Source: Bacteroidota bacterium (GTDB lineage: Bacteria; Bacteroidota; Ignavibacteria; UBA10030; BY39). From it: a DNA stretch of 64,000 nt. Under the pieces are notes generated by a model. The model was not told the origin of the DNA. It did not search any database and was given only the letters and a program-made list of their open reading frames with translations. The stretch is from assembly GCA_030017895.1 (NCBI GenBank), contig JASEGV010000002.1, positions 25,482 to 89,481 of the forward strand. Direction: 5' to 3'. The position numbers were made by a program, and so were the translations under genes. The first letter of the stretch is position 1. Each line of letters begins with the position of its first letter. Below are positions 21,017 through 63,098 of this stretch, in pieces.

Positions 21017-24000
21017 TTACTTAAGCAGACTCAATTTTTTTACAGAATTAAACGAACCGGCAGTAAGTTTGTAGAAATAAACTCCGCTCGCTAAATGAGA
21101 TGCATTGAAATTAACAGTGTAGTTTCCGGCTTTCATTTCTTCGTTAACTAATGTAGCTACTTCTTGTCCCAATATATTGTAAACTCTAAGAGTAACTAAA
21201 TTTGCTATAGGCAAACTGAATGCAATTGTAGTTGTTGGGTTGAACGGGTTCGGATAGTTTTGACTTAGGTTGAAGTCATCGGGAATTCCGTTACCATTTT
21301 CGTTCACGCTTACACGGACAGGGTCAGTTCCGCCGGCTTCTGTATATCGGGCAGCAAATTCCTGTATGTAAAGATTACCAACTCTGTTATCTTTTATAAT
21401 TAATGTGTTTTCATCGTTCCTTGTTTCAGCGGCACTCGACCAGTTATGCGAGCCGGTTACAACCCATGCAGTTCCTCCATAAGGTTCTGCATCAACGATT
21501 GCGTACTTATGATGTAAAAATCCGGTGCCAACTTTTAACAAAATATCTACACCACTCGATTGCATGTATGGAAATTGTGTCCCGCTATCAGTGTTATTAT
21601 CTAAAATAACACGTGTCTTTTTTCCAGCACTTTTCTTTACTACTATTGAATCGGCTAACTCTTTTCTTGTGAAAGTTAGCATAGCAATATTAATGGAACT
21701 TTGAGTTTTTCCTAAAGCTTTGCCGATATAGGTTGTTGTTCTGTCGCTTGGACTGAAAAACGACTCAATATATTTACCGCCAATAATAAATTTATGCGGT
21801 GTGTTGTTTAGCTTTCTTGCGCCGAATCTAGAAATTCCGGAGTTTGGAGTTTCGGTGTTGGCTCCCCACATTTCTTCGAACTCGCGTGTGTATGCGCCCG
21901 CAAGAGCCACATCCTGGATCTCAATCACATTTTGTCTGTCGGCATCGGTTCCGGGGTCTGTAGCATTCCAAGAACCGGTCCATACCCAAACGCTTTCCGG
22001 CGCGCCGCCGCGATAGTCAAACACAAAAAACTTATTATGATGTAAGCCCGTGCCGTCATTAAGTCCGTAAGCATCGTAGATAACCGTGATTCCATTATTT
22101 GTGAGTGTTGACCAAGGCAAAGTGGTTCTGTTATCGTACTCACCTATTACTCGAACTTTAACTCCACGATTTTTTGCTGCCACCAATGCGCTTGCCACAT
22201 TAGCGCCAACCGTACCGCTTAAACTATAAAGAGCAGCATCAATCGATCTTCGCGAATTGTTTATCCGCTCAATAACTTTTGATGATAAATTTATATTAGC
22301 TAAAGCCGCTTCACCAATCGATAATGTTGTGTTCACACTCTTGCTAAAATAAACATTAATTTTTCCGGTTGTCGGAGATTTTGATGTTGTACTCACTATT
22401 AAATTACCTGCGAAACTTGTATCGTTTCCTGAAACGGAAAAAGCTTGAACGTTATAAATTGTTGCTGCTGTTAAGCCGGTTAATGCTACTGAATGAGATA
22501 TCCTCAAATCATTATCAATTTCGATTACACCTAATTCGTAGTTTGTATTAACTCCATAACGAACACGCGATGTACCGGGAAAAAGTGTTTTCCAGCCAAC
22601 CGTTACCGAAGATGAATCAAGGTAAGTTTCTTCAGGATATTCTGTGAATAAAGGTCCCGATGATATAATGTCTTGAGTAAAGCGAGGCATAACTTGATAA
22701 CCACCGATGTAAGGTGTTGTTGTCTTGTATTGCCCCACGACACCGATTAGGTCGAATGTACCCGCAGGAGCTACTCCGCCGACTAAGTTTGTGTTATTAT
22801 CGATACGCAGTTGAACCGTATCGCTTGTTGAAGCGCCAATCAGGCGGTAGTTCGTATTTGCAGCCCAGTTTGTTACAGGGGTTCCACTTAGGGTGGTAAC
22901 AGTAACACCGATGATGTGTACGAGTTTGCCCTCATAAATTTCAACTCCTCCAACACCATTAAAATTAATCTGTGTTGGTGTTGATATTACGGGATCAACA
23001 AAATTGCCTGTGCTGATAACTGAATACTGTTCGGGCAATTCGATCTGGTTCAATCCACCGAATTGTGTTACTTTTCCAGTTACCTGAATTTCATCACCAA
23101 TATTAACGGCTGCTGAAAATATAGTTCCGTATATCGACATACCGGCGGAATTATCCTGTATAAAACTTGGACTGCCGAATTCGTTCGCGACGGTTATAAT
23201 TCCACGAACAGTTACCAGATCACCGATTCTCGTTGAAGCTCCGTTAGCATCGTTTACTTTTACTTCCGAGATCGGAATTGCTGCACCATAGACAGTAATA
23301 ACCGGGATCGGTGCGACGTCTCCGTAAGTTCCGCTTGCACCCGATTGTGTTTTAAATTTATAATAACCTGTAAAGGTTGCTGATGTAATAGGTGAGATTG
23401 TAATTTCTGTTGAATCTGCACTGAACGATATACCTGTAAAATAAATTGTATCGCCAATTACGCTTGCAGTTGCAATTATGTTTGTGTAACTAACGTCGCT
23501 AATATTCTTTGACCATGAAAATTCGGGTGGGACGATTATTCTTAAATTATTAACAGCAAATGCAGGGTCTTTACGGTATGTAATTTTGATGGTTGTATCG
23601 ACACTGCCATCTAAAAGAGATGGAGTAATTGATACTGAACCTGAACCTTCCGGACGTGCACGTAGTAAAGATATCCAAGCAGAATTTTCTGTTGTATTAC
23701 CGGTTCCACGCGTGATAGTAAGAGTGTTTTGTGACCAGTTTGCTACATCGATTAATTGGCTTACACTATTTCCCTTGAAAGCAGTTGCCGTGTTCGAAGT
23801 TAAAGCAGCCGAAAAATGAACTTTTGGTGCAGGTATGCTGGCTGCATTGGCAGGTCCCCATGAAACACCAAAGATATGTGTTTGTGATGTATTACGGATT
23901 TGAACAGCATCGCTAGTTCCAGCAATTGAAAACACATTGCCAGTAAAGTAAGTAGAATTGTTTGATTTTATTGTAAGTGAATAATCACTCGGATCAAAAT

Positions 24001-24286
24001 CTTCGGGGAAAGTGTTTTCGGGACGAGCAATGATAATAACAGTACCTGATTTGAGATTGTTCCATAGGGCATTTGTTGTAAAGACTAATGGAGCTAATGC
24101 ACCGCCTGTACTCGAAAAATCCCTAATATCCCAGCTCCTTATATCTAACCCATCTTGAACCACGAGCAACTCAACCCATTCATCGTTGCCGCTTGAATTA
24201 TAAAGTTCATTGATAATAATAGATTGTGAAAATATTGAGGAGGTCGCAAAAATCATTACAAATACAAACAAAACAAATTTTTTCAT
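21017..24286 (-). CDS. T9SS-secreted PLD-superfamily phosphodiesterase (two HKD motifs) with an N-terminal lamin-tail domain. Probable extracellular nuclease.
   Basis: 1089 aa. Has a signal peptide. The lamin-tail signature is IIINELYNSSGNDEWVELLV. The HKD motifs are HHNKFFVFD...GSWN and HHKYAIVD...GSHN. The C-terminal Por sorting domain is NYPNPFNPTTTIAF...SGVYFYKL. Confidence 0.8.
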   Translation of the reverse strand: MKKFVLFVFVMIFATSSIFSQSIIINELYNSSGNDEWVELLVVQDGLDIRSWDIRDFSSTGGALAPLVFTTNALWNNLKSGTVIIIARPENTFPEDFDPSDYSLTIKSNNSTYFTGNVFSIAGTSDAVQIRNTSQTHIFGVSWGPANAASIPAPKVHFSAALTSNTATAFKGNSVSQLIDVANWSQNTLTITRGTGNTTENSAWISLLRARPEGSGSVSITPSLLDGSVDTTIKITYRKDPAFAVNNLRIIVPPEFSWSKNISDVSYTNIIATASVIGDTIYFTGISFSADSTEITISPITSATFTGYYKFKTQSGASGTYGDVAPIPVITVYGAAIPISEVKVNDANGASTRIGDLVTVRGIITVANEFGSPSFIQDNSAGMSIYGTIFSAAVNIGDEIQVTGKVTQFGGLNQIELPEQYSVISTGNFVDPVISTPTQINFNGVGGVEIYEGKLVHIIGVTVTTLSGTPVTNWAANTNYRLIGASTSDTVQLRIDNNTNLVGGVAPAGTFDLIGVVGQYKTTTPYIGGYQVMPRFTQDIISSGPLFTEYPEETYLDSSSVTVGWKTLFPGTSRVRYGVNTNYELGVIEIDNDLRISHSVALTGLTAATIYNVQAFSVSGNDTSFAGNLIVSTTSKSPTTGKINVYFSKSVNTTLSIGEAALANINLSSKVIERINNSRRSIDAALYSLSGTVGANVASALVAAKNRGVKVRVIGEYDNRTTLPWSTLTNNGITVIYDAYGLNDGTGLHHNKFFVFDYRGGAPESVWVWTGSWNATDPGTDADRQNVIEIQDVALAGAYTREFEEMWGANTETPNSGISRFGARKLNNTPHKFIIGGKYIESFFSPSDRTTTYIGKALGKTQSSINIAMLTFTRKELADSIVVKKSAGKKTRVILDNNTDSGTQFPYMQSSGVDILLKVGTGFLHHKYAIVDAEPYGGTAWVVTGSHNWSSAAETRNDENTLIIKDNRVGNLYIQEFAARYTEAGGTDPVRVSVNENGNGIPDDFNLSQNYPNPFNPTTTIAFSLPIANLVTLRVYNILGQEVATLVNEEMKAGNYTVNFNASHLASGVYFYKLTAGSFNSVKKLSLLK

Positions 24287-42085: not shown

Positions 42086-42853
42086 ATGACACTGAAAACC
42101 ACATACTTAATCTTTTTTGTGTTGATAATAATTTTATTCTTTCTCCTGTGCGGATTTGCTAACCAATGGAAGCAAATTATTGTAGTAGAAAAAGTAGAAG
42201 TGCAGGGTATATATATTCTTCCTGAAAGAGATGTTGTAAAATTGGCTGCTATCAAATTCGGTACTCCGATTTTTGAGATTAACCTCGACAACATACGAAC
42301 AGAGCTTTTGCGTAATGAATACATTGAAGAAGCAAATATCAGCAGGAGCTTTTCGGGAACACTGCATCTTGTAATTCGCGAAAGGAAGCCAATCGGTTCG
42401 TTGATGTTCAATAAAATGTGGTACGTTGATGGTGATGGTACTTTGTTGAGTAAAATTCCCGCGAGTGTGGTTCTGGACCTTCCAATAATTTCAGGAGTAA
42501 GGCTTGAACCGGAAAAAATAAAAGGGGGAACAGTAATTTCTTATACCGATGCTCAGACGGCTATTTCAATTTTAACGGAAGTAATGAAAATTGATGAAGA
42601 TTTGTATTTCTTAATTTCTGAAATAGATCTTAATTACGGAAAAGACATTATAATTCATTCGGCAGATTATGGTGTGCCGATAAATATAGGACGCGGTAAC
42701 TACACTCATAAGTTGAAATTGCTATCAGCTTTTTGGCAGAAGTATGTTGTTACACGCGATTCACAAAATTTAGAATCGGTAGATGTACGTTTTAAAAATC
42801 AACTTGTCGTAAAATGGAAAGAAGAACCCAAAGCAAAAGAAAGAACGATATAA
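42086..42853 (+). CDS. ftsQ: Cell division protein FtsQ (POTRA-containing)
   Basis: 255 aa bitopic protein with a POTRA domain, upstream of ftsA. Confidence 0.75.
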   Translation: MTLKTTYLIFFVLIIILFFLLCGFANQWKQIIVVEKVEVQGIYILPERDVVKLAAIKFGTPIFEINLDNIRTELLRNEYIEEANISRSFSGTLHLVIRERKPIGSLMFNKMWYVDGDGTLLSKIPASVVLDLPIISGVRLEPEKIKGGTVISYTDAQTAISILTEVMKIDEDLYFLISEIDLNYGKDIIIHSADYGVPINIGRGNYTHKLKLLSAFWQKYVVTRDSQNLESVDVRFKNQLVVKWKEEPKAKERTI

Positions 42854-42864
42854 AAAGGTATAAA

Positions 42865-44100
42865 ATGGAGAATGAAATTTTAGTAGGACTAGATATTGGC
42901 ACAACAAAAGTTTGTGCGGTTGTAGCAAAAATTGATGAACAATCTAATATAAATATTTTAGGTGTCGGATTAAGTCCATCTGATGGATTAACTCGTGGTG
43001 TTGTAACTAATATCGAAAAAACAGTACGTTCGATTAACAGCGCAATTGCCGAAGCTGAGACGAGGTCGGGCATTCAAATTCAATCTGTGATTGCCGGAAT
43101 AGCCGGCGAGCATATCCAAAGTTTTCAAAGCCGCGGTGTAATTGCAATAAGCAATCCCGAAAACGATATAGCTAAAGGTGATGTCGATCGCTTGATCGAA
43201 GATACAAAGCGTGTTGCTCTTCCCTCCGATAGAAAAATTATACACGTTATCCCGCAAGAGTTTATTATCGATGGACAAGATGGTGTGAAAGATCCGGTCG
43301 GAATGTCGGGTGTTCGGTTAGAAGCAAATGTACATATAATTACCGGTTTGATTTCGGCAGCTCAAAATATACACAAATGTGTCGAACGAGCCGGACTTCA
43401 AATTTATGATATGGTACTTGAACCGCTTGCTTCAAGTTATGCTGTTTTAGATGACGAAGAAAAGGAAGTTGGTGTTGCTTTGCTCGATATTGGCGGAGGG
43501 ACAACCGACCTTGCAGTATTCGAGGATAAAACAATTCGCCACACTGCTGTAATTCCCATTGCAGGTAATCAGGTTACAAACGACTTGCGAAAAGTGCTTG
43601 GAATTTTAACCGAGCAAGCAGAGAAGTTGAAATGCCAGAATGGTTTTGCTTACCTACCAAGCGTAGTTGATGATGGACCAATAATTCTTCCCGGAATCGG
43701 AGGCAGACCACCGTTAGAAGTGGATAAACGACTTGTAGCACAAATAATTCAGCCAAGAATGGAAGAGATTTTAGAGATTGCTTTATTGGAAATAAAACGA
43801 TCAGGATCATCTAAGCATTTAGGGGCAGGTATTGTACTGACCGGCGGTGGTTCGTTAATAAAAGGCACAGCAGAACTGGCAAAAGATGTATTGGGAATGC
43901 CTGTTAAAATTGGAATCCCTTCAGGATTTAAAGCTGGTTTAGTCCGCGAAGTCGAAAATCCGATATATGCTACAAGTGTTGGCTTGGTTTTGTACGGCTT
44001 ACGAAATCGTGCGCTCCGTTTATCCGGGCGTAATGGAAAGAAAAAAGGTTCAGTAAAAAAAGTTTACGAATTTATGAAAGACTGGTATAAGAATATTTAA
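42865..44100 (+). CDS. ftsA: Cell division protein FtsA
   Basis: Actin-like ATPase (LVGLDIGTTKVCAVVAK, DIGGGTTD). I moved the start to the ATG at 42865 (MENEILVGLDIGT...). Confidence 0.9.
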   Translation: MENEILVGLDIGTTKVCAVVAKIDEQSNINILGVGLSPSDGLTRGVVTNIEKTVRSINSAIAEAETRSGIQIQSVIAGIAGEHIQSFQSRGVIAISNPENDIAKGDVDRLIEDTKRVALPSDRKIIHVIPQEFIIDGQDGVKDPVGMSGVRLEANVHIITGLISAAQNIHKCVERAGLQIYDMVLEPLASSYAVLDDEEKEVGVALLDIGGGTTDLAVFEDKTIRHTAVIPIAGNQVTNDLRKVLGILTEQAEKLKCQNGFAYLPSVVDDGPIILPGIGGRPPLEVDKRLVAQIIQPRMEEILEIALLEIKRSGSSKHLGAGIVLTGGGSLIKGTAELAKDVLGMPVKIGIPSGFKAGLVREVENPIYATSVGLVLYGLRNRALRLSGRNGKKKGSVKKVYEFMKDWYKNI

Positions 44101-44139: not shown

Positions 44140-45315
44140 ATGATAGAACTCGATTATAATTTTGACCGTGGTGCAAAAATCCGCGTCGTTGGTGTAGGCG
44201 GTGGCGGCGGAAATGCGATCAACAGTATGATTGATATGGGCTTGAATGGTGTAGATTTTTTTGTAATCAATACCGATTTACAAGCACTTGAAAGAAGCAA
44301 GGCGCCTAATAAAATTCAGGTCGGAAAAAATCTGACTCGCGGTTTAGGCGCCGGAGCCGATCCTCAAACCGGTATGCGTGCAGTCGAAGAAGACAGAGAC
44401 GAGTTAGCACGTGCTTTAGCTGGAAGTGATATGGTATTTGTTACAGCAGGTATGGGGGGTGGCACAGGTACTGGCGGTGCGCCAATCGTTGCCAACATTG
44501 CTAAAAGTATAAATGCGTTAGTAGTCGGAATTGTTACTAAACCGTTCAACGTCGAAGGTAAACATCGTATGGCGAATGCTGATGCCGGTCTCGAAGAACT
44601 GAAAAAGCATGTCGATACACTCATCATAATTCCGAATCAAAAATTAATTTCGATAGTTGACAGAGATACGCCGCTTACCGCAGCTTTCAATAAAGCCAAC
44701 GAAGTGTTATATAATGCAACCCGCGGTATCTCCGATATCATAACTGTTCCCGGATATGTTAACCGTGATTTTGCTGACATCAGAACAATTATGAAGGAAG
44801 CCGGCGATGCTTTAATGGGTACAGGCAGAGCCAATGGTGAAAATCGTGCAGTCGAAGCCGCTCACGCAGCAATTTCCAGTCCTTTACTCGACGGCGTTTC
44901 TATAGCAGGTGCACAAGGTGTTCTTGTTAATGTATGTGGCGGCCCCAATATGTCGCTTGTTGAAGCGGATGAAGCAGTTCAAGTAATTCACGATGCTGCC
45001 GGTGAAGATGCTAACATCATTATGGGATATGTTGTAGATGAATCTTTTGGCGACGATATAATGGTTACTGTTATCGCTACCGGTTTTAACCGACGCGGCA
45101 TAGGTTCTGTCCGTCCTGTCAAAAGAGATATTAAGATTGTAGAAAGAATTCCGGCAGGAATACAAGACATCAGAACATTGGATGAGCCGACAATAATCAG
45201 AAAAGGTATTGATCTACATTCCCAGATTCACAAAGCGTCAATCATCGAGGATCAGGAACGGATATTCAAAACCGATTCAAGCAAACCGGCATTTTTAAGA
45301 AAAATTATGGACTGA
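44140..45315 (+). CDS. ftsZ: Cell division GTPase FtsZ
   Basis: 391 aa. GVGGGGGNAIN and the tubulin signature AGMGGGTGTGGAP. Confidence 0.95.
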   Translation: MIELDYNFDRGAKIRVVGVGGGGGNAINSMIDMGLNGVDFFVINTDLQALERSKAPNKIQVGKNLTRGLGAGADPQTGMRAVEEDRDELARALAGSDMVFVTAGMGGGTGTGGAPIVANIAKSINALVVGIVTKPFNVEGKHRMANADAGLEELKKHVDTLIIIPNQKLISIVDRDTPLTAAFNKANEVLYNATRGISDIITVPGYVNRDFADIRTIMKEAGDALMGTGRANGENRAVEAAHAAISSPLLDGVSIAGAQGVLVNVCGGPNMSLVEADEAVQVIHDAAGEDANIIMGYVVDESFGDDIMVTVIATGFNRRGIGSVRPVKRDIKIVERIPAGIQDIRTLDEPTIIRKGIDLHSQIHKASIIEDQERIFKTDSSKPAFLRKIMD

Positions 45316-47409: not shown

Positions 47410-49200
47410 ATGAAAAAACTAATAGCTTTAATCACGCTATTAACAGTATTAAGTACTGTTAATTCACAAGAACCACTTTCGTTCCGCAATAAGGCGCTGG
47501 GTGGGATAGTGTCTGACAATCTGGATCTTATTTACGACCCGATTGAATTACGATTTGTAGATACTCTGCACTTATACACCAATCTCAGTAATTTAACAAG
47601 TGGGTATGAAGAGATTTTCAATAATCTTACTGACAATGAGTTGTTGTTAGGCGCTTCTCGACAAAACCCATTTTACAATAAGCACTAGCTTTCTGCTTTG
47701 GTCAGGTTTAAAAAATCTAAATCACCACGTTTTTTAGGGATGGATACTGATTTAAATGGTGGAAACGATTTTTGGGGGAATGGTGAAATTGAAAGCGAGT
47801 TCACGCATTATTATGATGCCTTGCCACCTTTTAATGGATTATACGATTTGAGAAGAACCATATATCAGAAAAAATATTCTGTATATCAAAATGATGGTTA
47901 TGGTTTTATTATTAACAACAGTTTTTTGCTACAAGATTACACACTCGGTTTAAAGTTAACAATCGGAAATTGGGGTAACGAAAATAATGATGCATCAATG
48001 TCATTAGGTTCGAGAAGGAATATGTTATATGGTGTATGGTGGACTGACGCGTCTTTCAGTCGCTCAGTAGATGAGTATTACCTCGATTCAAACTATTCGC
48101 GTCTCAGATGGTCGGAGGCGGGAGTTTTTAAAACGACGAATGATAATCCTTATTTTCGCATGATGGCTTCAATTATGAAACCGATGTGGGGATATGAACT
48201 GCGAGGCGATTTGAATTTTTACACTATCGATAACGCAATGAAAACAAATGATTTATACACCGGAGGTTTTGAATATTTCAGTCCAACGATAACCGGTTAT
48301 GCACGAAGATATTCTGAAAGTGATATGTTTAAGCGTGAACAGAGTCGTGATGGAACAGGATTGGGTTTGGGGATCTCTGCCCGCCGTACATTTAATCAAC
48401 AAAATGAACGGAGGAATGATGGATTTGTATTAATAGGATTTTCTGCCGTGTTTGAATCCTTTGATTACGATGATGCGACATCCAGAGACTTTTCAAGTAG
48501 TGAAAAAGTATACGACGGAACCGGAGGGTCAATCGATTTTGAACAATCTGTTATTAATAAAAACCAAACAGGCGATGATGGAATAGGTTCAACGAATATT
48601 CTTAACTTCGTATCCAGATTTAATATACCACTCATTGAGGGTGTCCATTTTGGACTTGGAGGATATTATTCAATCTATTCTACAAAAATTGAGACGAACT
48701 ATATTGAGGAAGTTAAAAACACGACCAACTACGAGCGCACAGATGGTGTCCCAAATGCATTGGATATGGTGAGGACGGAAACCTTCAGTCAGACCGCCAA
48801 TCGAACGATGAAAGACTATCTAACAATCTTAACTATCCCAGTCGGTATCGAATACCGTTTTACTGAAAGCAAAGCTTGGGCACTAAGATTCGGGTCGGTT
48901 TTCCGATACATAAACCAAACAAACGACGAGGAAAAGAAAATAAAAAATGCAGAACCCTGGATAAATAAAATAGTTTATGGAGACGGAACGTCAACAACAA
49001 CCACTAACGCTAACCGCTATCTTTCGTATGCTGAACACAGCTCAGAAAGCAACAGCAATACGCTTTTAACATACGGACTCGGTTGGAATCCAACCCAAAA
49101 TCTTCAGATTGATATACTTACTTATTTTGATACAAGAAACTATGATACAATTATCCAATATCTAAAGAGTCTTCACCTCTCGTTTGTGCTGAAGATTTGA
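47410..49200 (+). pseudogene. Outer-membrane-protein-like gene interrupted by a single in-frame TAG (47686-47688). A signal-peptide exon of 92 aa is followed by a 500-aa body in the same frame.
   Basis: ORFs 47410..47688 and 47698..49200 share a reading frame and are separated only by the codon TAG. The first ORF has a signal peptide (MKKLIALITLLTVLSTVNSQE). The second ORF begins at a non-ATG (TTG) codon with no ribosome-binding-site context of its own. Confidence 0.5.
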
Positions 49201-49686: not shown

Positions 49687-50295
49687 TTGAGTAATAAGGA
49701 AAGAGTTTTATTTTCGATCGTCGGTATCGACCTTGCTGGCAGCCCGATGCGGAACACAGGTATTTGTTTACTGAAAGGGAAGAATGTAGTTAAGTATGCG
49801 ACTGTATATTCAGATTCTGAAATAATTTCTTTTGTGGAAGAAGCTAAGCCAGCTCTTGTTGCAATAGATGCGCCATTAAACCTGCCTCCCGGACGAAAAA
49901 ATATTGAAGACAGGAATGGCGAGCATTTCCGTCCGTGCGATAGGGAGTTGTTGAAACGCGGTATCCGGTTCTTTCCGATTACACTTGGTCCAATGCGTCC
50001 TCTAACTGTCCGTGGGATTAAACTGAAAAAAAAATTGCAAAGAAAAGGATACAAGGTCATTGAAATTTACCCCGGTGCCGCTCAGGATGTGTGGGGTATT
50101 CCACGAAAACAAAAAGGACTTCCAAAACTCAGGCGCGGTTTAGAAAAGCTTGGACTAAAAGGTTTGAATAAGGATATGAACGGCGATGAGCTTGATGCTA
50201 TTACTGGGGCATTAACTGGAAGATTATTTTTACTGCGTAAAACTGAAGTGTTAGGGAATTTTAAAGAAGGGGCGATTGTGGTGCCGCAGAAATAA
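49687..50295 (+). CDS. DUF429-family protein (predicted RNase H-fold, RuvC/YqgF-like nuclease)
   Basis: 202 aa. GIDLAGS...GICLL...AIDAPLNLP has the YqgF/RuvC-like acidic-residue pattern. TTG start. Confidence 0.55.
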   Translation: MSNKERVLFSIVGIDLAGSPMRNTGICLLKGKNVVKYATVYSDSEIISFVEEAKPALVAIDAPLNLPPGRKNIEDRNGEHFRPCDRELLKRGIRFFPITLGPMRPLTVRGIKLKKKLQRKGYKVIEIYPGAAQDVWGIPRKQKGLPKLRRGLEKLGLKGLNKDMNGDELDAITGALTGRLFLLRKTEVLGNFKEGAIVVPQK

Positions 50296-50393: not shown

Positions 50394-53300
50394 ATGAAAA
50401 TTAAAACCATGCAATCGGAATCATTATTCCCCATCCTTGAGAACGAACAGCGTTGGGAAACAAAAGGAATATTCTCAGAGCATTATCTACAAACTCGTCT
50501 GAGGGAATCTCATTATTGGCCCAAAGATGAAGATGCCCGTCCAATTTATGATTTCGTTGCTGAATTATGGAAGAAGAGGTTTATAGGACTTTCGAAAGGT
50601 AACGAGGAAACAACTCGGCGTGAATTCCTGGAAAAGATTCTTGAGAAGTTAGGCATTTCATTTTATTCGAACCTCGGATTACCTGAGTCGGAGCGTGCAC
50701 AGACACCAGATTATCTTCTTTTCGAAGATGAAGAAACTAAGAATCGTGTATTCAACGAGGATAATGAAGTAAAACACCAGGCGGCAATCGGTTTGATGGA
50801 AGCCAAAAAAGTTCATCATCCGCTTGATCAAGTTTCGAAGAAGGAAACACCCGGACGTTTTCCACACCAACAGATGAAGGATTATCTGAGTCAAGCAACA
50901 AACAAAACAGGGGAGGCATATTTTAGGTGGGGTATTTTATCAAATGGTAATGTGTGGAGATTATACTGTCGTGATGCTCATCCCTCATCGTATTTTGGAT
51001 TCCATCTTGCAGGACCCGAAGAATATTTTTGCACTTTTGATGACTTTAAAATCTTTATCACCCTTTTCCAGCCGCAGGTCTTTGTAAAAAAAGATGGACG
51101 ATGCGCTCTTGATGAGATACGTGAAGAAGCAATTAGTTTCCAAACAACTCTGGAAGAAGATTTACGTCGCCGTATTTTTGCCGTTGTGCTTGATCTTGCA
51201 AATGGGTTTTGGAAATTCAAAGAAAACAAACTTAGCGAAAGAGATCTTCCGGATCTCTATAACAACTGCTTGATTTTGCTTTACCGTTTGTTATTCATTC
51301 TCTATGCTGAGGGGAGAGGTTTATTGCCTGTGAAGCTTTCAGGTGCCGGTTCTAACAAAAACTATCGAGAGAGATTTTCATTACAAAGATTCAATCTCCG
51401 TCTCAAGAAGGCAACCGAATTCCATTCTGATAATTTTACCGATTTATACGAAGAACTTCTAAAACTATTTCATCTTATCAACGGCGATAAACCTAAACTA
51501 AATAAAGAATGCGATGTTCCAAGATATAACGGCGGACTTTTTCATCCCGGCAACCATTTAAAACTTGAACAATGGCGTGTTGGTGAAAAAGCACTTGCAC
51601 AGGTATTGCGTGATTTGATTTTTAGTGCCGGGCATACGGAGCGCAGTAAACAAGGTGAATTCGAATGGGGTGCTATTGATTATGCCGATTTGGAAGTTCG
51701 ACAACTCGGTGATATTTATGAGGGATTACTTGGTGGTCATATAGAACTTCAGAACGATAAACTTGTCCTTCGCAGTGAAAAAGGAGAACTCCAAATATCG
51801 GGTACTTTCTACACTCCGGATTGGGTCGTACGTTTTCTTGTTGAGAAGACACTCAAACCGCTAATTGACGCAATAGAAAAGAGTGAAGGGGTCTTGAGCG
51901 CTCTGAAGAAGAAAAAGAAAGATAACTCATTCGCACTTAAAGTATTGAAGCTTAACGTTCTAGATAATGCTATGGGTAGCGGACATTTTCTTGTCCGTGC
52001 TACTGAATGGCTTGCCGACCAAATCGTTTATCATCCAACAACAAAATTTCAGATTGAGAATGTGCCACCGGGAATTTCTCAAGAGCAAGCCGAAGTTGCT
52101 TACTGGCGACGGCGCGTTGTTGAAGCATGTATCTACGGTGTAGATTCAAATCCTTTGGCAGTTGAGCTAACGAAACTTTCACTCTGGCTCACGTGTATTG
52201 CTTCGAATGAGCCGTTAAATTTCCTCGATCATCATCTCCGTGCCGGCAATTCATTGATCGGTGCGAAACTTCACGAATTATCCGTGTTACCAATTCATCA
52301 AAAGGAAGAGCAAATACATTTTACATTTGGTAAAAATCTTACAGAAGCAGTAAGTGATGCCATAAAAGAAATTGAAGCTATCGAGGAAGAAGCTTCGACC
52401 GAGATTGATATTGTGAAGAAGAAGGAAGAACGCTGGCGGGATAAAGTTATAAAACGACTCGATCCTTTCAGAGATGTTGCAAACCTCTGGATATCTGCCG
52501 CTTCTGGATTGACCATCAATGAGGCGGAATACACGCAGCTTGCTTCTGGATTTATTACTTCACCGAAACCGCGCTCAAAGGAATTCCAAGAGTTCAAATC
52601 TACACTTGATAAGTTTAAAGATGAATACAAACGCATTACTGACTATTTGATGCCGTTTCACTGGGAGTTAGAATTCCCGGATGTTTTTTTTCACGACGAT
52701 GGAACCATAAAAGACAATCCTGGCTTTGATGCGATTCTTGGAAATCCACCGTACATCTCTACACAAACATCAAGCGGTTTTGAATACCGAAATGCATTTG
52801 AGCAACGGTTCGGTTTCGTTGATGATCTCTATGTACACTTTGTGTTTCAAGGATTTAAGCTACTCCGTAACGGGGGAACTTTTGGCTACATCGTTTCTGA
52901 CACCTTCTTTACGCTTGCAACAAAATTGCGTATGCGCGAGCTTCTCCAGCATAACCGGTTGTTTTACATTGGGCAATGCGATCCATTTACCGCGACGGTG
53001 GATGCTGCAATTTTCGTTGCTGAGAAAAAAGATGCAAAAGAAAATTATGATCTGCATTTCATACAGGCACGTTATAAAACAGACGGTAGCACGCCCGACA
53101 AAGAACTTGTTGAGCTTGCCACGAAGCCAATGCCTCTTCTGATTAACGGCACAGCGCCAATAGAGGTAGGCGGAGGACAGCATCATGTTCTTCATGGAAA
53201 TCAGGGTTGTTTACGTTTGCATCGAATTGGCGTTGATGCGTACCGTTCCGCTGTCAAGTCAACGTTCTTTGAGCCAACAAATGCGATAACTCTTTTATAT

Positions 53301-54680
53301 AATAGATTTAATGAACCACTCAAGAAACTAGTTACCACATGGTGGGAGAAAATTGAAACATCGAAAAAGTATGATGACAATCGCGAAGAAATATTTCGCT
53401 ATCATCAAACACTGAAGCCAGGAGATGTATCACTCGTCGGTTTAATTGCCGATGGTGGACAAGGAATGAGGACGGCAAACAACGGCAGATTTCTTGGTTT
53501 TATTGAGAAAACTGAACAAGCAAAAGATATAGAGCAACGTAGGAAAGAACTTACGCACTTATGGAATATGAACCCCCAAGTCAAAGTACCTTTTGCGAAA
53601 CTGCTTGAAGAAAATGAAGGTGACTTTGAAGCTATTGTTGAACCGTTAAAGAATCAGTTTGATCCTCTCCGAATTTTGGGATTAAAACGTGGAGAAATTT
53701 ATAGGATTGTTCCAAATGAGTTGTTAGCAACACAAGAAGATTTTAACCGTGCTTACGAATTGAGAAAAGCGGAGCTTGAAGAACGATGGAAAGAATCAAA
53801 GGATTTTAAAGCTCCTTACGAAGAGTTGAAGAAAATACACGGCGAAAGGTTTTGTGAGATTTTTCATACTCTTGCAACTCGACTAAAGAAAAAGAAGCTT
53901 GCTATTACACGCCTTGGTGTTCATTCCGGTGAATATTATTTAGACGAGGTAGATGCCCCACGTATTACAACTATCTATAATGGTTTAGATGGTAAACGAG
54001 TTTGGGTTGCATTCCGTAAAGGTGATCCAGAAGGAAATAAATGGACAGATATTGAACCGCTCTACATTAAATGGTCAAATGAGAATGTAAGCTTCTTGCA
54101 CAATAATAGTGGAAGGCCAGAACCCACTATGCCAGTAATCCGAAATGCACATCTGTATTTTACAGAAGGTGTAACCTATACTTTACTTGGCAATCACGTT
54201 GAACTAAAAGCAAAGCTTCAACCCAAATGTGTGTTCGATGCAGGCGCTTCTCGCCTTACACCAAGCGTTAAGGGAATTTCTGCCTACACGTTTTTAGCGG
54301 TGTTGAACAGTAACATTTTTAGTTTCATTATTAGGAAGTTTATCAAGAACACAGCAGCATACGAAATCAACGATCTACGAATGGCACCATTTGTCATCCC
54401 CTCTAAAGACCAAGCCGCTAAACTTGAGACGCTTGCCAAGAGAGCCGTCGAAGCAAAAGAGCTTACGCTTAGAAAACTAGACCCATCGGTAGAGTTAATA
54501 AAATACTCCCGGCAGTTAGTAAAGGAACAGCAAAACGCACCTAAGTATCTCCAACCGCGCCCACAATTGTTATTACTCGATTCTTCAGAAGAATGTCTCC
54601 ACGCCATTGAGCTTGCAGTCCAATGGGAAGTGGAAAAGCTGTACGGCGTAGAAGGCACAGGACCGTTTGAGGAGTTTTAA
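50394..54680 (+). CDS. Single-chain restriction-modification enzyme of Type IIG/IIL architecture. It has an N-terminal PD-(D/E)xK nuclease, an Eco57I/PglX-type gamma-class N6-adenine methyltransferase, and a C-terminal target-recognition domain.
   Basis: 1428 aa. The PD...EAK motif is TPDYLLF(x29)MEAKK at about aa 105-138. Methyltransferase motif X is GTFYTPDWVV (aa 470) and motif I is VLDNAMGSGHFLV (aa 522). The family hallmarks YGVDSNPLAVELTKLSLWL and FHWELEFPDVF are present. Motif IV is NPPY (aa 784), followed by FGYIV. The C-terminal TaqI-C-like target-recognition domain ends with AYTFLAVLNSNIFSFIIRKF. Confidence 0.8.
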   Translation: MKIKTMQSESLFPILENEQRWETKGIFSEHYLQTRLRESHYWPKDEDARPIYDFVAELWKKRFIGLSKGNEETTRREFLEKILEKLGISFYSNLGLPESERAQTPDYLLFEDEETKNRVFNEDNEVKHQAAIGLMEAKKVHHPLDQVSKKETPGRFPHQQMKDYLSQATNKTGEAYFRWGILSNGNVWRLYCRDAHPSSYFGFHLAGPEEYFCTFDDFKIFITLFQPQVFVKKDGRCALDEIREEAISFQTTLEEDLRRRIFAVVLDLANGFWKFKENKLSERDLPDLYNNCLILLYRLLFILYAEGRGLLPVKLSGAGSNKNYRERFSLQRFNLRLKKATEFHSDNFTDLYEELLKLFHLINGDKPKLNKECDVPRYNGGLFHPGNHLKLEQWRVGEKALAQVLRDLIFSAGHTERSKQGEFEWGAIDYADLEVRQLGDIYEGLLGGHIELQNDKLVLRSEKGELQISGTFYTPDWVVRFLVEKTLKPLIDAIEKSEGVLSALKKKKKDNSFALKVLKLNVLDNAMGSGHFLVRATEWLADQIVYHPTTKFQIENVPPGISQEQAEVAYWRRRVVEACIYGVDSNPLAVELTKLSLWLTCIASNEPLNFLDHHLRAGNSLIGAKLHELSVLPIHQKEEQIHFTFGKNLTEAVSDAIKEIEAIEEEASTEIDIVKKKEERWRDKVIKRLDPFRDVANLWISAASGLTINEAEYTQLASGFITSPKPRSKEFQEFKSTLDKFKDEYKRITDYLMPFHWELEFPDVFFHDDGTIKDNPGFDAILGNPPYISTQTSSGFEYRNAFEQRFGFVDDLYVHFVFQGFKLLRNGGTFGYIVSDTFFTLATKLRMRELLQHNRLFYIGQCDPFTATVDAAIFVAEKKDAKENYDLHFIQARYKTDGSTPDKELVELATKPMPLLINGTAPIEVGGGQHHVLHGNQGCLRLHRIGVDAYRSAVKSTFFEPTNAITLLYNRFNEPLKKLVTTWWEKIETSKKYDDNREEIFRYHQTLKPGDVSLVGLIADGGQGMRTANNGRFLGFIEKTEQAKDIEQRRKELTHLWNMNPQVKVPFAKLLEENEGDFEAIVEPLKNQFDPLRILGLKRGEIYRIVPNELLATQEDFNRAYELRKAELEERWKESKDFKAPYEELKKIHGERFCEIFHTLATRLKKKKLAITRLGVHSGEYYLDEVDAPRITTIYNGLDGKRVWVAFRKGDPEGNKWTDIEPLYIKWSNENVSFLHNNSGRPEPTMPVIRNAHLYFTEGVTYTLLGNHVELKAKLQPKCVFDAGASRLTPSVKGISAYTFLAVLNSNIFSFIIRKFIKNTAAYEINDLRMAPFVIPSKDQAAKLETLAKRAVEAKELTLRKLDPSVELIKYSRQLVKEQQNAPKYLQPRPQLLLLDSSEECLHAIELAVQWEVEKLYGVEGTGPFEEF

Positions 54681-54732: not shown

Positions 54733-55554
54733 ATGGAAAACAATAAAGTCGCTTTATTCAAAGGAAGACAAATTCGGAGAATAATTCATAACAATGAATG
54801 GTGGTTTGTAGTTGAAGATGTAGTACTCGCACTGACTGATAGTTTAAATCCGAAAGACTACATAAATAAGATTAGACGACGTGATCCGGAACTTGCCAAA
54901 GGGTATGGACAAATTGTCCATACCCTTCCCATCTTAACAGAGGGCGGAATGCAACAAATGAATTGTGCTAACACCGAGGGCATCTTCCGTATAATTCAAT
55001 CCATCCCGTCGCCCAAAGCCGAACCGTTTAAACGCTGGTTAGCAAAAGTCGGTTACGAGCGCGTTCAGGAAATTGAAAACCCGGAATTGGCAACAAAACG
55101 CACAAGAATGCTATACAAGCTCAAAGGATATCCGGAAGATTGGATAGAAAAACGGATGCGGGGAATTGCAATCCGTGAGGAACTTACAGACGAATGGCAA
55201 AAGCGTGGGGCTGAAGAACAAAAAGATTATAAAATTTTGACTGCCGAAATATCGAAAGCAACTTTCGGTGTTACACCATCGCAATATAAAAAACTGAAGA
55301 GATTAAAACGGGAAAACCTCCGCGACCACATGGACGACCTCGAATTGATTTTTACGATGTTGGGTGAGCGGGCTACGACTGAAATTCACCGGACAGAAAA
55401 TTCACACGGTGTTCCTAAATTAAAATCGGATGCAAAAGCCGGTGGAGATATTGCCGGCGGCGCAAGGAAGAAGTTAGAAAAAAGGTTAGGCAAATCTATC
55501 GTTTCAAAGAAGAACTATTTACCAAAATTAAAGCGGCGGAAATTACCCCGTTAG
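54733..55554 (+). CDS. Bro-N domain protein of the DinD (DNA-damage-inducible protein D) family
   Basis: 273 aa. The N-terminal Bro-N region is FKGRQIRRIIHNNEWWFVVEDVVLAL. The C-terminal half resembles E. coli DinD (KRWLAKVGYERVQE..., KLKRLKRENLRDHMDDLEL). Confidence 0.65.
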   Translation: MENNKVALFKGRQIRRIIHNNEWWFVVEDVVLALTDSLNPKDYINKIRRRDPELAKGYGQIVHTLPILTEGGMQQMNCANTEGIFRIIQSIPSPKAEPFKRWLAKVGYERVQEIENPELATKRTRMLYKLKGYPEDWIEKRMRGIAIREELTDEWQKRGAEEQKDYKILTAEISKATFGVTPSQYKKLKRLKRENLRDHMDDLELIFTMLGERATTEIHRTENSHGVPKLKSDAKAGGDIAGGARKKLEKRLGKSIVSKKNYLPKLKRRKLPR

Positions 55555-61294: not shown

Positions 61295-62239
61295 TTAATG
61301 ACTACCGTTTAGAACAGTAACTTTTGCTGATTTAATTTCGAAAGGATCGAAAGCCATCTTCTCTTGATTTTTGAATGCGTTGATTCGATTGTTGCAAAGT
61401 TTGATATATTCTTCGCTGATTTCGTAGCCCACGAATTTTCGATTACATTTAAGCGCCACCAAGCCAACTGTTCCACTGCCCATAAACGGATCGAGAACAA
61501 TATCATCTTCGAAAGAGTAGAGTTGGATTAAACGATAAGGAAGTTCTTCCGGAAATGGAGCTGGATGACCAATTCTTCTAGCAGATTCGGCATTCATTGA
61601 CCAAATTGATTTTGTCCATTCCAAAAATTGTTCTTTTGTAATCGTGTTTTGCTTTCCCTTTGCAACCCTTGAATAACTACCCTTTGAAAAAACTAAAATA
61701 TATTCATGAATATCTCGAAGAATCGGATTGGCAGCAGAGAGCCAACTTCCCCAAGCCGTAGAGGGACTAGCACTTGCAGCTTTATTCCAAATGATTTCGC
61801 CACGCATATTAAAACCGATTTCGAGCATGATGCGGGAGATATAATCGGATAATGGGATATAAGGCTTCCTACCTAGATTAGCAACATTGATACAAACACG
61901 ACCACCATTGATAAGAACACGATAGGTCTCTGAAAAGACATTTTTTAATAAAGAAAGATATTCATCAAGAGAGAGATCGTTATCATATTCCTTTGAGACA
62001 TTGTACGGAGGAGAAGTAATCATCAGATGAACACAATTATCAGGTAGTTCTTTCATCTTCTCTGAATTTCCAAGAATAATTGTGTTTTCTAAATTTGGAG
62101 GAAAAACATTCTCTTCAGACGATACAGGTTCGTTCGGCGTCATTGTTCCATAAAGACGGGAATTATAGAACTTGGACGAATCATGATTGATACGACCACT
62201 TGTGCCAAAAGAGCTTGTCTCGGTACCTTTGTGTTTCAT
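61295..62239 (-). CDS. DNA methyltransferase, beta-class (N4-cytosine or N6-adenine; PF01555 N-4/N-6 methylase family)
   Basis: 314 aa. Motif IV SPPY (MITSPPYNV) precedes motif I DPFMGSGTVG, which is the beta-class permutation. Confidence 0.85.
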   Translation of the reverse strand: MKHKGTETSSFGTSGRINHDSSKFYNSRLYGTMTPNEPVSSEENVFPPNLENTIILGNSEKMKELPDNCVHLMITSPPYNVSKEYDNDLSLDEYLSLLKNVFSETYRVLINGGRVCINVANLGRKPYIPLSDYISRIMLEIGFNMRGEIIWNKAASASPSTAWGSWLSAANPILRDIHEYILVFSKGSYSRVAKGKQNTITKEQFLEWTKSIWSMNAESARRIGHPAPFPEELPYRLIQLYSFEDDIVLDPFMGSGTVGLVALKCNRKFVGYEISEEYIKLCNNRINAFKNQEKMAFDPFEIKSAKVTVLNGSH

Positions 62240-62240
62240 A

Positions 62241-63098
62241 TTAACTTCTAATAAGTGATAAAAACTTTTCTGCTTTCTGAATATCCGTCTTTTCTTTTGC
62301 CGCTATGGAGATAATCTCGCCCAAATTGACTTTTGTGATCATTGAGGAAAAGAAATTTAACTCTTCTTTGATGAAAGCACTGAGTATGTTTTGGAGTTGT
62401 CTAGAATCAGAGACGGTTTGAAACCCTAACTTTGGACTGGATTTGATAAAATCAGCTTTGGTCGGTGAAGGATTCAGAGATATAAATCCTTGGATAACAC
62501 CAGATGTTTTTAGAAAGTCAACCTTGCCAACATAAGAATCGGTAATGGGACTATTACCTAGAACAACGATGGGAATTTTTGTTGCTGAAATACCAGAGAC
62601 ACGGATATTGATAGACTTGCCAATGGCCTTTAGCATAGAATCGGAACGAAGCAGCGAAGGGTTGCCTTTGTGAGTCTTATAATCGCCAAGAAGTGAGATG
62701 GTATTTGTTTTCTTTTCATATCGGTAATTTGAGACAACACTCATCTTGACTTCAAAGAGTAACTTGATATCATTGGCGTTTTGATTTACGCCATCCTTCG
62801 TACAAAAAGCTACATCGGCGCTTGATTGCCGTGTTAATCCTAATTCTTCACATACAACTCCATTAACTGCATATAGTTTGAACGCTTTGGCAATTGGAGA
62901 AAGAAGATTCTTTGCCCAGTTTTCTGTGAATTGACCAATAAGAGAATTCCTACTTTGGAGAGTTTGGCCTTCAGCATTGCTTCCTTTGGGAATATAGGCA
63001 AAATAGCCACCAGTGAGCTTATAAAAAAGTTGCTCTGGAGGAGCGAAACTTTTCAAAGATTCTTTGAGGAATTGTATTTCAGTCTCAGTATTCCACAT
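62241..63098 (-). CDS. Putative Type II restriction endonuclease, partner of the adjacent methyltransferase
   Basis: 285 aa. Its stop is 1 nt from the methyltransferase start. Candidate PD-(D/E)xK motif is ADVAF...LLFEVKM. Otherwise no family-level similarity, as is typical of REases. Confidence 0.55.
   Translation of the reverse strand: MWNTETEIQFLKESLKSFAPPEQLFYKLTGGYFAYIPKGSNAEGQTLQSRNSLIGQFTENWAKNLLSPIAKAFKLYAVNGVVCEELGLTRQSSADVAFCTKDGVNQNANDIKLLFEVKMSVVSNYRYEKKTNTISLLGDYKTHKGNPSLLRSDSMLKAIGKSINIRVSGISATKIPIVVLGNSPITDSYVGKVDFLKTSGVIQGFISLNPSPTKADFIKSSPKLGFQTVSDSRQLQNILSAFIKEELNFFSSMITKVNLGEIISIAAKEKTDIQKAEKFLSLIRS

What the first reader, a model, noticed from the sequence alone, without database searches (positions are those of the whole stretch)
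50394..54680. Oversized (1428 aa) single-chain RM enzyme with PD-ExK nuclease, Eco57I/PglX-type gamma N6-adenine methyltransferase and target-recognition domain
The protein shows the hallmarks of Type IIG/IIL enzymes (MmeI/Eco57I) and of BREX PglX. These are GTFYTPDWVV (motif X), DNAMGSGHFL (motif I), YGVDSNPLAVELTKLSLWL, FHWELEFPDVF and NPPY. It also has a TaqI-C-like target-recognition-domain tail (AYTFLAVLNSNIFSFIIRKF). It is 400-500 aa longer than MmeI-class enzymes. There is a roughly 470-aa region ahead of the methyltransferase that contains a PD..(x29)..EAK nuclease motif. A further block of about 300 aa (aa 900-1200) sits between the methyltransferase core and the target-recognition domain and has no obvious assignment. 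No BREX partner genes (brxA, brxB, brxC, pglZ, brxL) and no helicase motifs are present, so it looks like a stand-alone defence enzyme with extra modules. Together with its neighbours this is the most plausible candidate here for a non-standard defence locus.
Basis: partly seen in the sequence, partly recalled or inferred. Interest (0 to 1): 0.7.

Follow-up and report, generated by a model that had tools for sequence, protein, structure and literature searches.

The report
Stand-alone Type IIG restriction-modification enzyme
This gene encodes a large single-protein restriction-modification enzyme (DNA cutter, DNA methylase and sequence reader in one chain) from a widespread but unstudied branch of a well-known enzyme class, so it is a real but fairly ordinary bacterial defence gene.

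Summary
The ORF at 50394-54680 (+) is real and intact: 1428 aa with every quoted motif in place. It is a single-chain Type IIG-type restriction-modification enzyme. Its parts are an N-terminal RecB/HsdR-like PD-(D/E)XK nuclease (D106, E136-x-K138 and Q160xxxY164, all invariant in the family), a helical spacer, an Eco57I-type gamma N6-adenine methyltransferase (NPPY 784-787), and a PglX/TaqI-like target-recognition region.

The size is not anomalous. More than 100 full-length colinear homologues of 1350-1540 aa were found, and 328 relatives occur in about 186,000 species genomes; the 80 loci returned were all uncultivated MAGs. The "unassigned" aa 900-1200 block is not an extra module. It is the proximal part of the recognition region, shared with proteins that score as ordinary Type IIG enzymes, plus a clade-specific tandem duplication of a ~60-75-aa helical insert.

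No BREX, DISARM or helicase partners occur in the window. No neighbour gene is conserved across 74 related loci, so the Bro-N and DUF429 neighbours are incidental. The protein is already in NCBI (MDI6802404.1) with a generic Eco57I-domain name.

Verdict: new, uncharacterised member of a known kind. The recognition site and cleavage geometry are unknown. Interest is low to moderate.

The parts
50394..54680 (+). Complete ORF, 1428 aa: single-chain nuclease-methyltransferase-TRD (Type IIG-type RM enzyme); NCBI MDI6802404.1
50451..51098 (+). N-terminal PD-(D/E)XK nuclease domain (aa ~20-235), RecB/HsdR-like
50706..50885 (+). Nuclease catalytic motifs: P105-D106, E136-A-K138, Q160-x-x-x-Y164 (E71 upstream is also conserved)
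   Evidence: At least 95% conserved in 110 family members and invariant in the 60-sequence alignments. The QxxxY motif of RecB/HsdR nucleases is described in PMC2475608.
51099..51788 (+). Helical spacer / N-terminal helical domain (aa 236-465)
51789..53072 (+). Gamma-class N6-adenine methyltransferase domain (aa 466-893): motif X 470-479, motif I 524-533, NPPY 784-787, with a poorly conserved insert at ~aa 625-755
   Evidence: Pfam Eco57I 3e-28 and N6_Mtase. PADLOC DrmMI 1.4e-93 and REase_MTase_IIG 4e-43. Motif invariance.
53073..53993 (+). Mid-block (aa 894-1200): proximal part of the recognition region (conserved aa ~940-1040, including GLIADGGQGMRTANNGRF) plus a helical insert
   Evidence: AF2 model pLDDT 90. 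phmmer gives 210 cluster representatives, with the block at the same relative position in 1100-1350-aa Type IIG-scoring proteins.
53529..53939 (+). Tandem duplication of a ~60-75-aa helical module (aa ~1046-1103 and ~1121-1182); the 1360-aa variants have one copy
   Evidence: Smith-Waterman score 54 against shuffles 24.2+-4.5, 0 of 1000 reaching it. Overlapping BLAST segments.
53994..54398 (+). Beta-rich TRD core (aa 1201-1335), PglX/TaqI-like
   Evidence: Foldseek BrxX 9ewz 1.4e-7, PglX 8c45, CamA, M.BseCI and M.TaqI, with assignment to this stretch by inference. Sequence alignment to BrxX residues 710-866. Profile 1.4e-18. Weak Pfam TaqI_C hit.
54399..54677 (+). C-terminal helical region with the conserved ...EKLYGVEG.GPF[DENS][ED]F tail (aa 1336-1428)

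Best explanation
The gene encodes a stand-alone Type IIG-type restriction-modification enzyme, with restriction, modification and specificity in one polypeptide. Shown: the domain order is RecB/HsdR-like PD-(D/E)XK nuclease, then helical spacer, then Eco57I-type gamma N6-adenine methyltransferase, then PglX/TaqI-like target-recognition region, then a C-terminal helical region. The nuclease and methyltransferase catalytic motifs are invariant across the family. The C-terminal recognition part diverges faster or is exchanged between relatives. There is no conserved partner gene. Inferred, by analogy with BpuSI, Eco57I, MmeI and DrdV: the methyltransferase-TRD unit binds a short asymmetric site and, with AdoMet, methylates one adenine to mark host DNA. 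On unmodified foreign DNA the N-terminal nuclease, held away by the helical spacer, cuts at a fixed distance to one side of the site. Because no companion methylase is adjacent, host protection probably rests on methylation of one strand only, as in MmeI-type (Type IIL) enzymes, and cleavage probably needs more than one enzyme-site complex. The recognition sequence and cut distance cannot be derived here.
Confidence: 0.8

Rival explanations
1. It is effectively an orphan (modification-only) methyltransferase whose N-terminal nuclease-like domain no longer cuts DNA. It would serve epigenetic regulation or would be a decaying RM remnant.
For: It is a solitary gene among housekeeping genes next to the dcw cluster. 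The closest relative in L011 (91% identity) appears disrupted: its ORF is 1288 aa, with database fragments of 1158 and 1113 aa. This shows that members do decay.
Against: The window copy is full length. All PD-(D/E)XK and QxxxY residues are invariant across more than 100 homologues from many phyla, which implies selection on nuclease activity.
Confidence: 0.07
2. It is the methyltransferase component of a multi-gene BREX-, DISARM- or MANTIS-like system, or of an SNF2-helicase-paired system, whose partners are encoded elsewhere.
For: The best PADLOC hit is DrmMI at 1.4e-93. The TRD is closest to PglX/BrxX. Haloarchaeal relatives at ~30% identity are directly followed by an SNF2 helicase scoring as BrxHII/DrmD.
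Against: NCBIfam PglX models are far below cut-off (103.9 against 500 bits). No DrmA/B/C/D, BrxA/B/C/L, PglZ or helicase occurs in the 64-kb window. Nine contexts from six look-ups and 74 genome loci show no recurrent partner, and only one weak SNF2 hit lay ~5 kb away in 80 loci. The protein carries its own conserved nuclease. MANTIS needs four separate genes.
Confidence: 0.06
3. It works as a three-gene unit with its immediate neighbours DUF429 (PDC-S44-like) and the Bro-N protein (PDC-S13-like), forming a non-standard defence locus.
For: The three genes are on the same strand with short gaps of 98 and 52 bp. Both neighbours match PADLOC defence-candidate families. Two close homologues have an ORF6N (KilA-N-like) gene upstream.
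Against: Neither neighbour, nor ORF6N, is found by tblastn next to any of 80 related loci, including the 91%-identical orthologue. De novo clustering finds no shared flank family in more than 5 of 74 loci.
Confidence: 0.05

Closest known systems
Type IIG restriction-modification enzymes with an N-terminal PD-(D/E)XK nuclease (BpuSI, Eco57I family; DrdV)
   Different: About 400-550 aa longer than BpuSI (870 residues in the PDB chain) or DrdV (~1015). No sequence-level hit to them, even with a family profile. The nuclease carries the RecB/HsdR QxxxY motif. The recognition region is PglX-like, with a duplicated helical insert.
MmeI family (Type IIL)
   Different: Pfam MmeI_Mtase (17.8 against 27 bits) and MmeI_hel (13.2 against 27) are below cut-off. 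No MmeI_N, MmeI_TRD or MmeI_C hits.
BREX PglX / BrxX methyltransferase
   Same: The only solved structures detectable by sequence: TRD plus C-terminal region, 1.4e-18 with the family profile, with aa 1200-1370 aligned to BrxX 710-866. Best Foldseek match for aa 860-1428.
   Different: NCBIfam BREX models are far below cut-off. No BREX partner genes. This protein has a conserved N-terminal nuclease, which PglX lacks (my knowledge of PglX). It also has ~210 extra residues between the methyltransferase core and the TRD core relative to BrxX.
DISARM class 1 DrmMI and haloarchaeal nuclease-methyltransferase + SNF2 helicase pairs
   Same: Highest-scoring PADLOC family (DrmMI PDLC02643, 1.4e-93 over the methyltransferase core). 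Haloarchaeal plasmid proteins are ~30% identical and colinear over aa 23-880.
   Different: DISARM needs DrmA, DrmB and DrmC (plus DrmD in class 1) (bioRxiv 10.1101/2021.12.28.474362), and none is present. The helicase partner seen in 2 of 4 haloarchaeal loci is absent from this clade.
Type I HsdR / RecB-family nuclease domain
   Different: No helicase motor is attached or adjacent. The domain is fused directly to a methyltransferase-TRD.

Membership tests
Type IIG RM enzyme | Endonuclease and methyltransferase domains in one polypeptide | tested here: met
   PD-(D/E)XK fold at aa ~20-235 and Eco57I/N6_Mtase at aa 438-855 in a single 1428-aa ORF. Catalytic residues of both are invariant.
Type IIG RM enzyme | Target-recognition domain in the same chain (or a separate S subunit) | tested here: met
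   The aa 860-1428 model matches the TRDs of PglX, CamA, M.BseCI and M.TaqI. The C-terminal part diverges or is swapped among relatives. No hsdS-like gene was found among the scanned neighbours.
Type IIG RM enzyme | Sequence match to Type IIG family models | tested here: inconclusive
   PADLOC REase_MTase_IIG models hit at 4e-43 and weaker. The reported best stretches cover mainly the methyltransferase core, and DrmMI scores higher. Colinear distant relatives score strongly as Type IIG. REBASE is not available.
Type IIG RM enzyme | AdoMet-dependent or AdoMet-stimulated cleavage at a fixed distance from an asymmetric site | not testable with these tools
   Requires biochemistry.
MmeI family (Type IIL) | Pfam MmeI_N / MmeI_hel / MmeI_Mtase / MmeI_TRD / MmeI_C domains above gathering score | tested here: not met
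   MmeI_Mtase 17.8 bits and MmeI_hel 13.2 bits, both against a cut-off of 27. The other MmeI domains were not detected.
MmeI family (Type IIL) | Methylation of one strand only, with no companion methylase | tested here: inconclusive
   No adjacent second methylase. The nearest one (61295-62239, minus strand) has its own partner ORF. Strand-specific methylation is not testable here.
BREX PglX | Score above the NCBIfam PglX cut-offs | tested here: not met
   BREX_1_MTaseX 103.9 against 500 bits. BREX-2, -5 and -6 models are far below cut-off as well.
BREX PglX | Operon with brxA/brxB/brxC/pglZ/brxL | tested here: not met
   None among the flanking genes or the large ORFs of the window, nor in related loci.
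DISARM class 1 DrmMI | Sequence match to DrmMI models | tested here: met
   PDLC02643 at 1.4e-93, with aa 469-844 matching profile positions 555-942 of 1347. This is the methyltransferase core only.
DISARM class 1 DrmMI | Neighbouring drmD (SNF2), drmA (helicase), drmB (DUF1998) and drmC (PLD) | tested here: not met
   Absent from the window. The only PLD protein (21017-24286, minus strand) has a T9SS secretion tail and lies 26 kb away. Absent from 74-80 related loci.
Type ISP (LlaGI-like) / Type I | Helicase/translocase motor in the chain or as a subunit | tested here: not met
   No helicase domain in the protein or in its neighbours.

The most novel reading that the evidence does not exclude
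The 'long' C-terminal architecture could give this MAG-restricted clade a mode of assembly, autoinhibition or partner recruitment not seen in characterised Type IIG enzymes. That architecture combines a PglX-like recognition region, a duplicated helical insert and an invariant extreme C-terminal ...YGVEG.GPF[DENS][ED]F tail, fused to a RecB/HsdR-type nuclease. The clade would then be a functional intermediate between classical Type IIG restriction and the PglX/DrmMI methylases of BREX and DISARM.
Probability: 0.1. Interest if true: 0.45.

Novelty: new member of a known kind. Interest (0 to 1): 0.22.

Why it matters
This is mainly a clean-up result. A protein that looked like an oversized, multi-module defence enzyme is a regular member of a large, uncharacterised Type IIG clade. 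It has practical value because Type IIG enzymes couple one recognition module to both methylation and cutting, so new clades are sources of new specificities for biotechnology. It has evolutionary value because the clade joins a Type I/RecB-like nuclease to a PglX-like recognition region and a DrmMI-like methyltransferase core. That illustrates how the BREX and DISARM methylases relate to classical single-chain restriction enzymes. None of this would surprise an RM specialist.

Tried and rejected
1. BREX PglX: rejected, because the NCBIfam scores are far below cut-off and there are no partner genes.
2. DISARM DrmMI: the resemblance is real but limited to the methyltransferase core, and DrmA/B/C/D are absent. 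The 1089-aa PLD protein at 21017-24286 is a T9SS-secreted enzyme, not DrmC.
3. Helicase-paired system, as in the haloarchaeal relatives: no SNF2 gene next to the family; there was one weak hit ~5 kb away in 80 loci.
4. MANTIS/Gao_RL: a four-gene system, not applicable.
5. Functional unit with Bro-N, ORF6N or DUF429: not conserved with the gene.
6. TRD shufflon or programmed inversion: only short, chance-level repeats were found.
7. Promoter and terminator scan: uninformative, with counts below the shuffle expectation, and the sigma-70 consensus may not suit this phylum.
8. Sequence search of the PDB with the single protein and with a family profile: no solved Type IIG enzyme was detected, only PglX and orphan gamma methyltransferases.
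10. GC content shows no compositional anomaly at the gene.
Full report
**Observation**

The ORF at 50394-54680 (+) exists as described. It has an ATG start and 1428 codons with no interruption.
- GTFYTPDWVV at aa 470-479
- DNAMGSGHFL at aa 524-533
- YGVDSNPLAVELTKLSLWL at aa 581-599
- FHWELEFPDVF at aa 755-765
- NPPY at aa 784-787
- AYTFLAVLNSNIFSFIIRKF at aa ~1297-1316
- P105-D106, then 29 residues, then E136-A-K138

Pfam finds Eco57I (PF07669, 3e-28, aa 579-855) and N6_Mtase (aa 438-605). It also gives sub-threshold hints of HSDR_N (aa 99-192), MmeI_hel (aa 295-383) and TaqI_C (aa 1219-1328). GC content at the gene is unremarkable.

**Context in the window**

The gene lies just downstream of the dcw cluster, whose last genes are ftsA (42814-44100) and ftsZ (44140-45315). 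The genes that follow are:
- an MBL-fold protein with a T9SS sorting tail
- two ORFs with no family match (92 aa and 500 aa)
- a CBS-domain protein
- a DUF429 protein (49687-50295), which matches the PADLOC candidate PDC-S44

The target gene comes next. After it are a Bro-N protein (54733-55554; PADLOC candidate PDC-S13 at 5e-109; phrog_15286 at 1e-83, Ant-like) and then a sigma-54 response regulator on the opposite strand.

The large ORFs elsewhere in the window are housekeeping genes: a PBP, RecJ, HisRS, NIF3 and a carboxyltransferase. There is also a secreted PLD with a T9SS tail. No helicase, BrxA/B/C/L, PglZ or DrmA/B/C/D was found anywhere.

**Family**

The exact protein is in NCBI as MDI6802404.1, named [quoted passage not shown], from a MAG. 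The large protein database gave 1894 homologues. The best 120 are mostly full-length and colinear, at 46-77% identity and 1350-1540 aa. The sources name them as coming from Ignavibacteria, Thermodesulfovibrionales, Planctomycetota, Verrucomicrobiota, Armatimonadota and others.

A scan of one genome per species (185,579 species) found 328 relatives. The best 80 are all uncultivated MAGs. The length of 1428 aa is therefore the family norm. PADLOC's own Type IIG models are 1429-1584 positions long.

**Conservation**

In an alignment of 110 family members, the following are each at least 95% conserved, and they are invariant in the 60-sequence alignments:
- nuclease residues E71, P105-D106, E136-A-K138, Q160 and Y164
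- methyltransferase motif X
- motif I (D524, G528-S-G-H-F)
- N784-P-P-Y787

In the structure model, D106 directly precedes a beta-strand, and E136 lies in the next strand with K138 just after its end. Q160xxxY164 lies on the following helix. This is the canonical PD-(D/E)XK arrangement plus the QxxxY motif. That motif is reported as characteristic of RecB-family nucleases and Type I HsdR subunits (PMC2475608). Both catalytic activities therefore appear to be under selection.

**N-terminal 470 aa**

The HsdM and PglX matches presumably fall on the helical part, although residue ranges were not reported. The region ahead of the methyltransferase is thus the standard Type IIG nuclease plus helical spacer, not an extra module.

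**C-terminal 569 aa (aa 860-1428)**

This model is confident (pLDDT 90.2, pTM 0.88). Foldseek matches the TRD-bearing parts of BrxX/PglX (1.4e-7), CamA, M.BseCI and M.TaqI, over about 230-260 residues. By sequence, aa 1200-1370 align to BrxX residues 710-866, and a family profile raises this match to 1.4e-18.

The secondary structure of the model reads as follows:
- the last methyltransferase strands run to about aa 893
- a beta/alpha segment covers aa ~923-1004
- a short beta segment at aa 1012-1037 carries the invariant GLIADGGQGMRTANNGRF
- a helical insert spans aa ~1041-1196
- the beta-rich TRD core spans aa 1204-1334
- C-terminal helices end the chain

**The "unassigned" aa 900-1200 block**

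A phmmer search of aa 880-1200 against 1.84 billion cluster representatives found 210 hits at E <= 1e-3 and 148 at E <= 1e-10. The aa ~940-1120 core recurs at the same relative position, around residues 750-1100, in proteins of 1100-1350 aa.

Those proteins are colinear with the query from about aa 295 to about aa 1380, at 25-30% identity. They score as Type IIG enzymes: PADLOC REase_MTase_IIG PDLC03601 at up to 2.9e-146, and in several of them Pfam Eco57I with MmeI_hel, and TaqI_C in one.

Within the block, aa ~1046-1103 and aa ~1121-1182 are a tandem duplication. The local alignment score is 54, against 24.2 +- 4.5 for 1000 shuffles, none of which reached it. The ~1360-aa variants have a single copy. 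The block is therefore the proximal recognition region plus a lineage-specific duplicated helical insert.

**Modularity**

In the ~1360-aa relatives, aa 1-1118 are 60-80% identical to the query, but aa 1124-1428 are only 40-52% identical. A second class of 1170-1300 aa shares aa 1-~880 at 34-55% identity. It has an unrelated, shorter C-terminal half ending in the common ...LYGLT.EEI..VE motif. The long class ends in an invariant ...YGVEG.GPF[DENS][ED]F. A constant nuclease-methyltransferase core with exchangeable recognition modules is what is expected for Type IIG enzymes.

**Partners**

Nine genomic contexts from six look-ups have flanks of housekeeping genes, integrases and, for the two closest relatives only, an ORF6N gene.

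In 80 genome loci, tblastn found no Bro-N, ORF6N or DUF429 homologue. It found only one weak SNF2 hit, about 5 kb from the gene. De novo clustering of 542 flanking ORFs found no family present in more than 5 of 74 loci, and those few differ in size, position and strand. Even the 91%-identical orthologue (L011) has different neighbours. The gene is a mobile, self-contained unit. No inverted repeats or silent TRD cassettes are present.

**Relation to BREX and DISARM**

NCBIfam PglX models are far below their cut-offs (103.9 against 500 bits). The best PADLOC score is DrmMI (1.4e-93), with the reported best stretch covering the methyltransferase core.

Haloarchaeal plasmid proteins are ~30% identical and colinear over aa 23-880. 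In two of four examined loci they are directly followed by an SNF2 helicase, and the one scanned, in Halolamina, scores as BrxHII/DrmD. One haloarchaeal homologue is solitary and one is disrupted by an IS element.

The wider superfamily therefore includes helicase-paired forms, but the window's clade does not. DISARM class 1 requires DrmD plus DrmABC (bioRxiv 10.1101/2021.12.28.474362). MANTIS requires four separate genes. Neither applies here.

**Mechanism**

Shown:
- the domain architecture
- intact and conserved catalytic motifs for both activities
- an exchangeable recognition module
- the absence of partner genes

Inferred by analogy with BpuSI, Eco57I, MmeI and DrdV:
- AdoMet-dependent m6A methylation of a short asymmetric site marks host DNA.
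- Unmodified DNA is cut at a fixed distance by the N-terminal nuclease.
- With no companion methylase, protection probably relies on single-strand methylation, as in MmeI-type enzymes, and cleavage probably needs more than one enzyme-site complex.

The recognition site and the cut distance are unknown.

**Verdict**

The interpretation as a stand-alone Type IIG-type enzyme is supported. The suggestion of extra, unassigned modules and of a non-standard defence locus is not supported. This is a new, uncharacterised member of a known kind, and its interest is low to moderate.

Limits of this analysis:
- REBASE was not available.
- No full-length model was made.
- The fold-search outputs give no residue ranges.
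- All function rests on homology.

Noticed in passing
window 54733-55554 (+): A 273-aa Bro-N domain protein lies 52 bp downstream of the RM gene. It is a full-length match to the PADLOC defence candidate PDC-S13 (5e-109) and to phrog_15286 (1e-83), and its N-terminus resembles phage anti-repressors (Ant). Two close homologues of the RM gene have an ORF6N (KilA-N-like) gene upstream (L001 9338-9898; L005 4322-4993). No such gene is found in 80 other related loci.
   Followed up: partly
window 49687-50295 (+): A 202-aa DUF429 protein lies immediately upstream (98-bp gap). It matches the PADLOC defence candidate PDC-S44 (4e-16). It is not conserved next to relatives of the RM gene.
   Followed up: partly
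window 61295-63098 (-): A separate probable small Type II RM pair. It consists of a 314-aa N6_N4_Mtase (PF01555, 1.4e-48) at 61295-62239, abutting a 285-aa ORF with no Pfam or PHROG match at 62241-63098 that is a candidate restriction endonuclease.
   Followed up: no
window 47410-49200 (+): Two ORFs (92 aa and 500 aa) between the MBL/T9SS protein and the CBS protein. Neither has a Pfam or PADLOC match, and the 500-aa ORF also has no PHROG match. Function unknown.
   Followed up: no
window 21017-24286 (-): A 1089-aa protein with two PLD-like domains and a T9SS C-terminal sorting domain. It is a secreted phospholipase-D-family enzyme and should not be mistaken for DISARM DrmC.
   Followed up: partly
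L010 5974-13099; L091 4974-12094: On haloarchaeal plasmids (Halolamina pCBA1230-02, Halobacterium salinarum PHS4), a ~1390-aa nuclease-methyltransferase is followed, with overlapping stop and start codons, by a ~980-aa gene annotated as helicase-related. The methyltransferase protein is ~30% identical to the window protein over aa 23-880. In L010 it scores best as DrmMI (4e-117) and the helicase scores as BrxHII/DrmD (1e-171). In both loci a TATA-box-binding protein gene comes next. This looks like a two-gene DrmMI+DrmD-like module without DrmABC.
   Followed up: partly
window 54633-54677 (aa 1414-1428): The extreme C-terminus ...EKLYGVEGTGPFEEF is among the most conserved stretches of the protein. 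G1423, P1424, F1425 and F1428 are at least 95% conserved, and all 'long-class' relatives examined end in GPF[DENS][ED]F. It replaces the ...LYGLT.EEI..VE ending of the short class. Its role is unknown; it could be an interaction or autoinhibitory tail.
   Followed up: partly
L011 10001-14272: The closest relative (91% identity, Bacteroidetes MAG DeMMO2_4) appears interrupted. Its longest in-frame ORF is 1288 aa, and the database holds 1158-aa and 1113-aa fragments. It sits in a completely different gene neighbourhood. This points to mobility and occasional decay, or to an assembly error.
   Followed up: no
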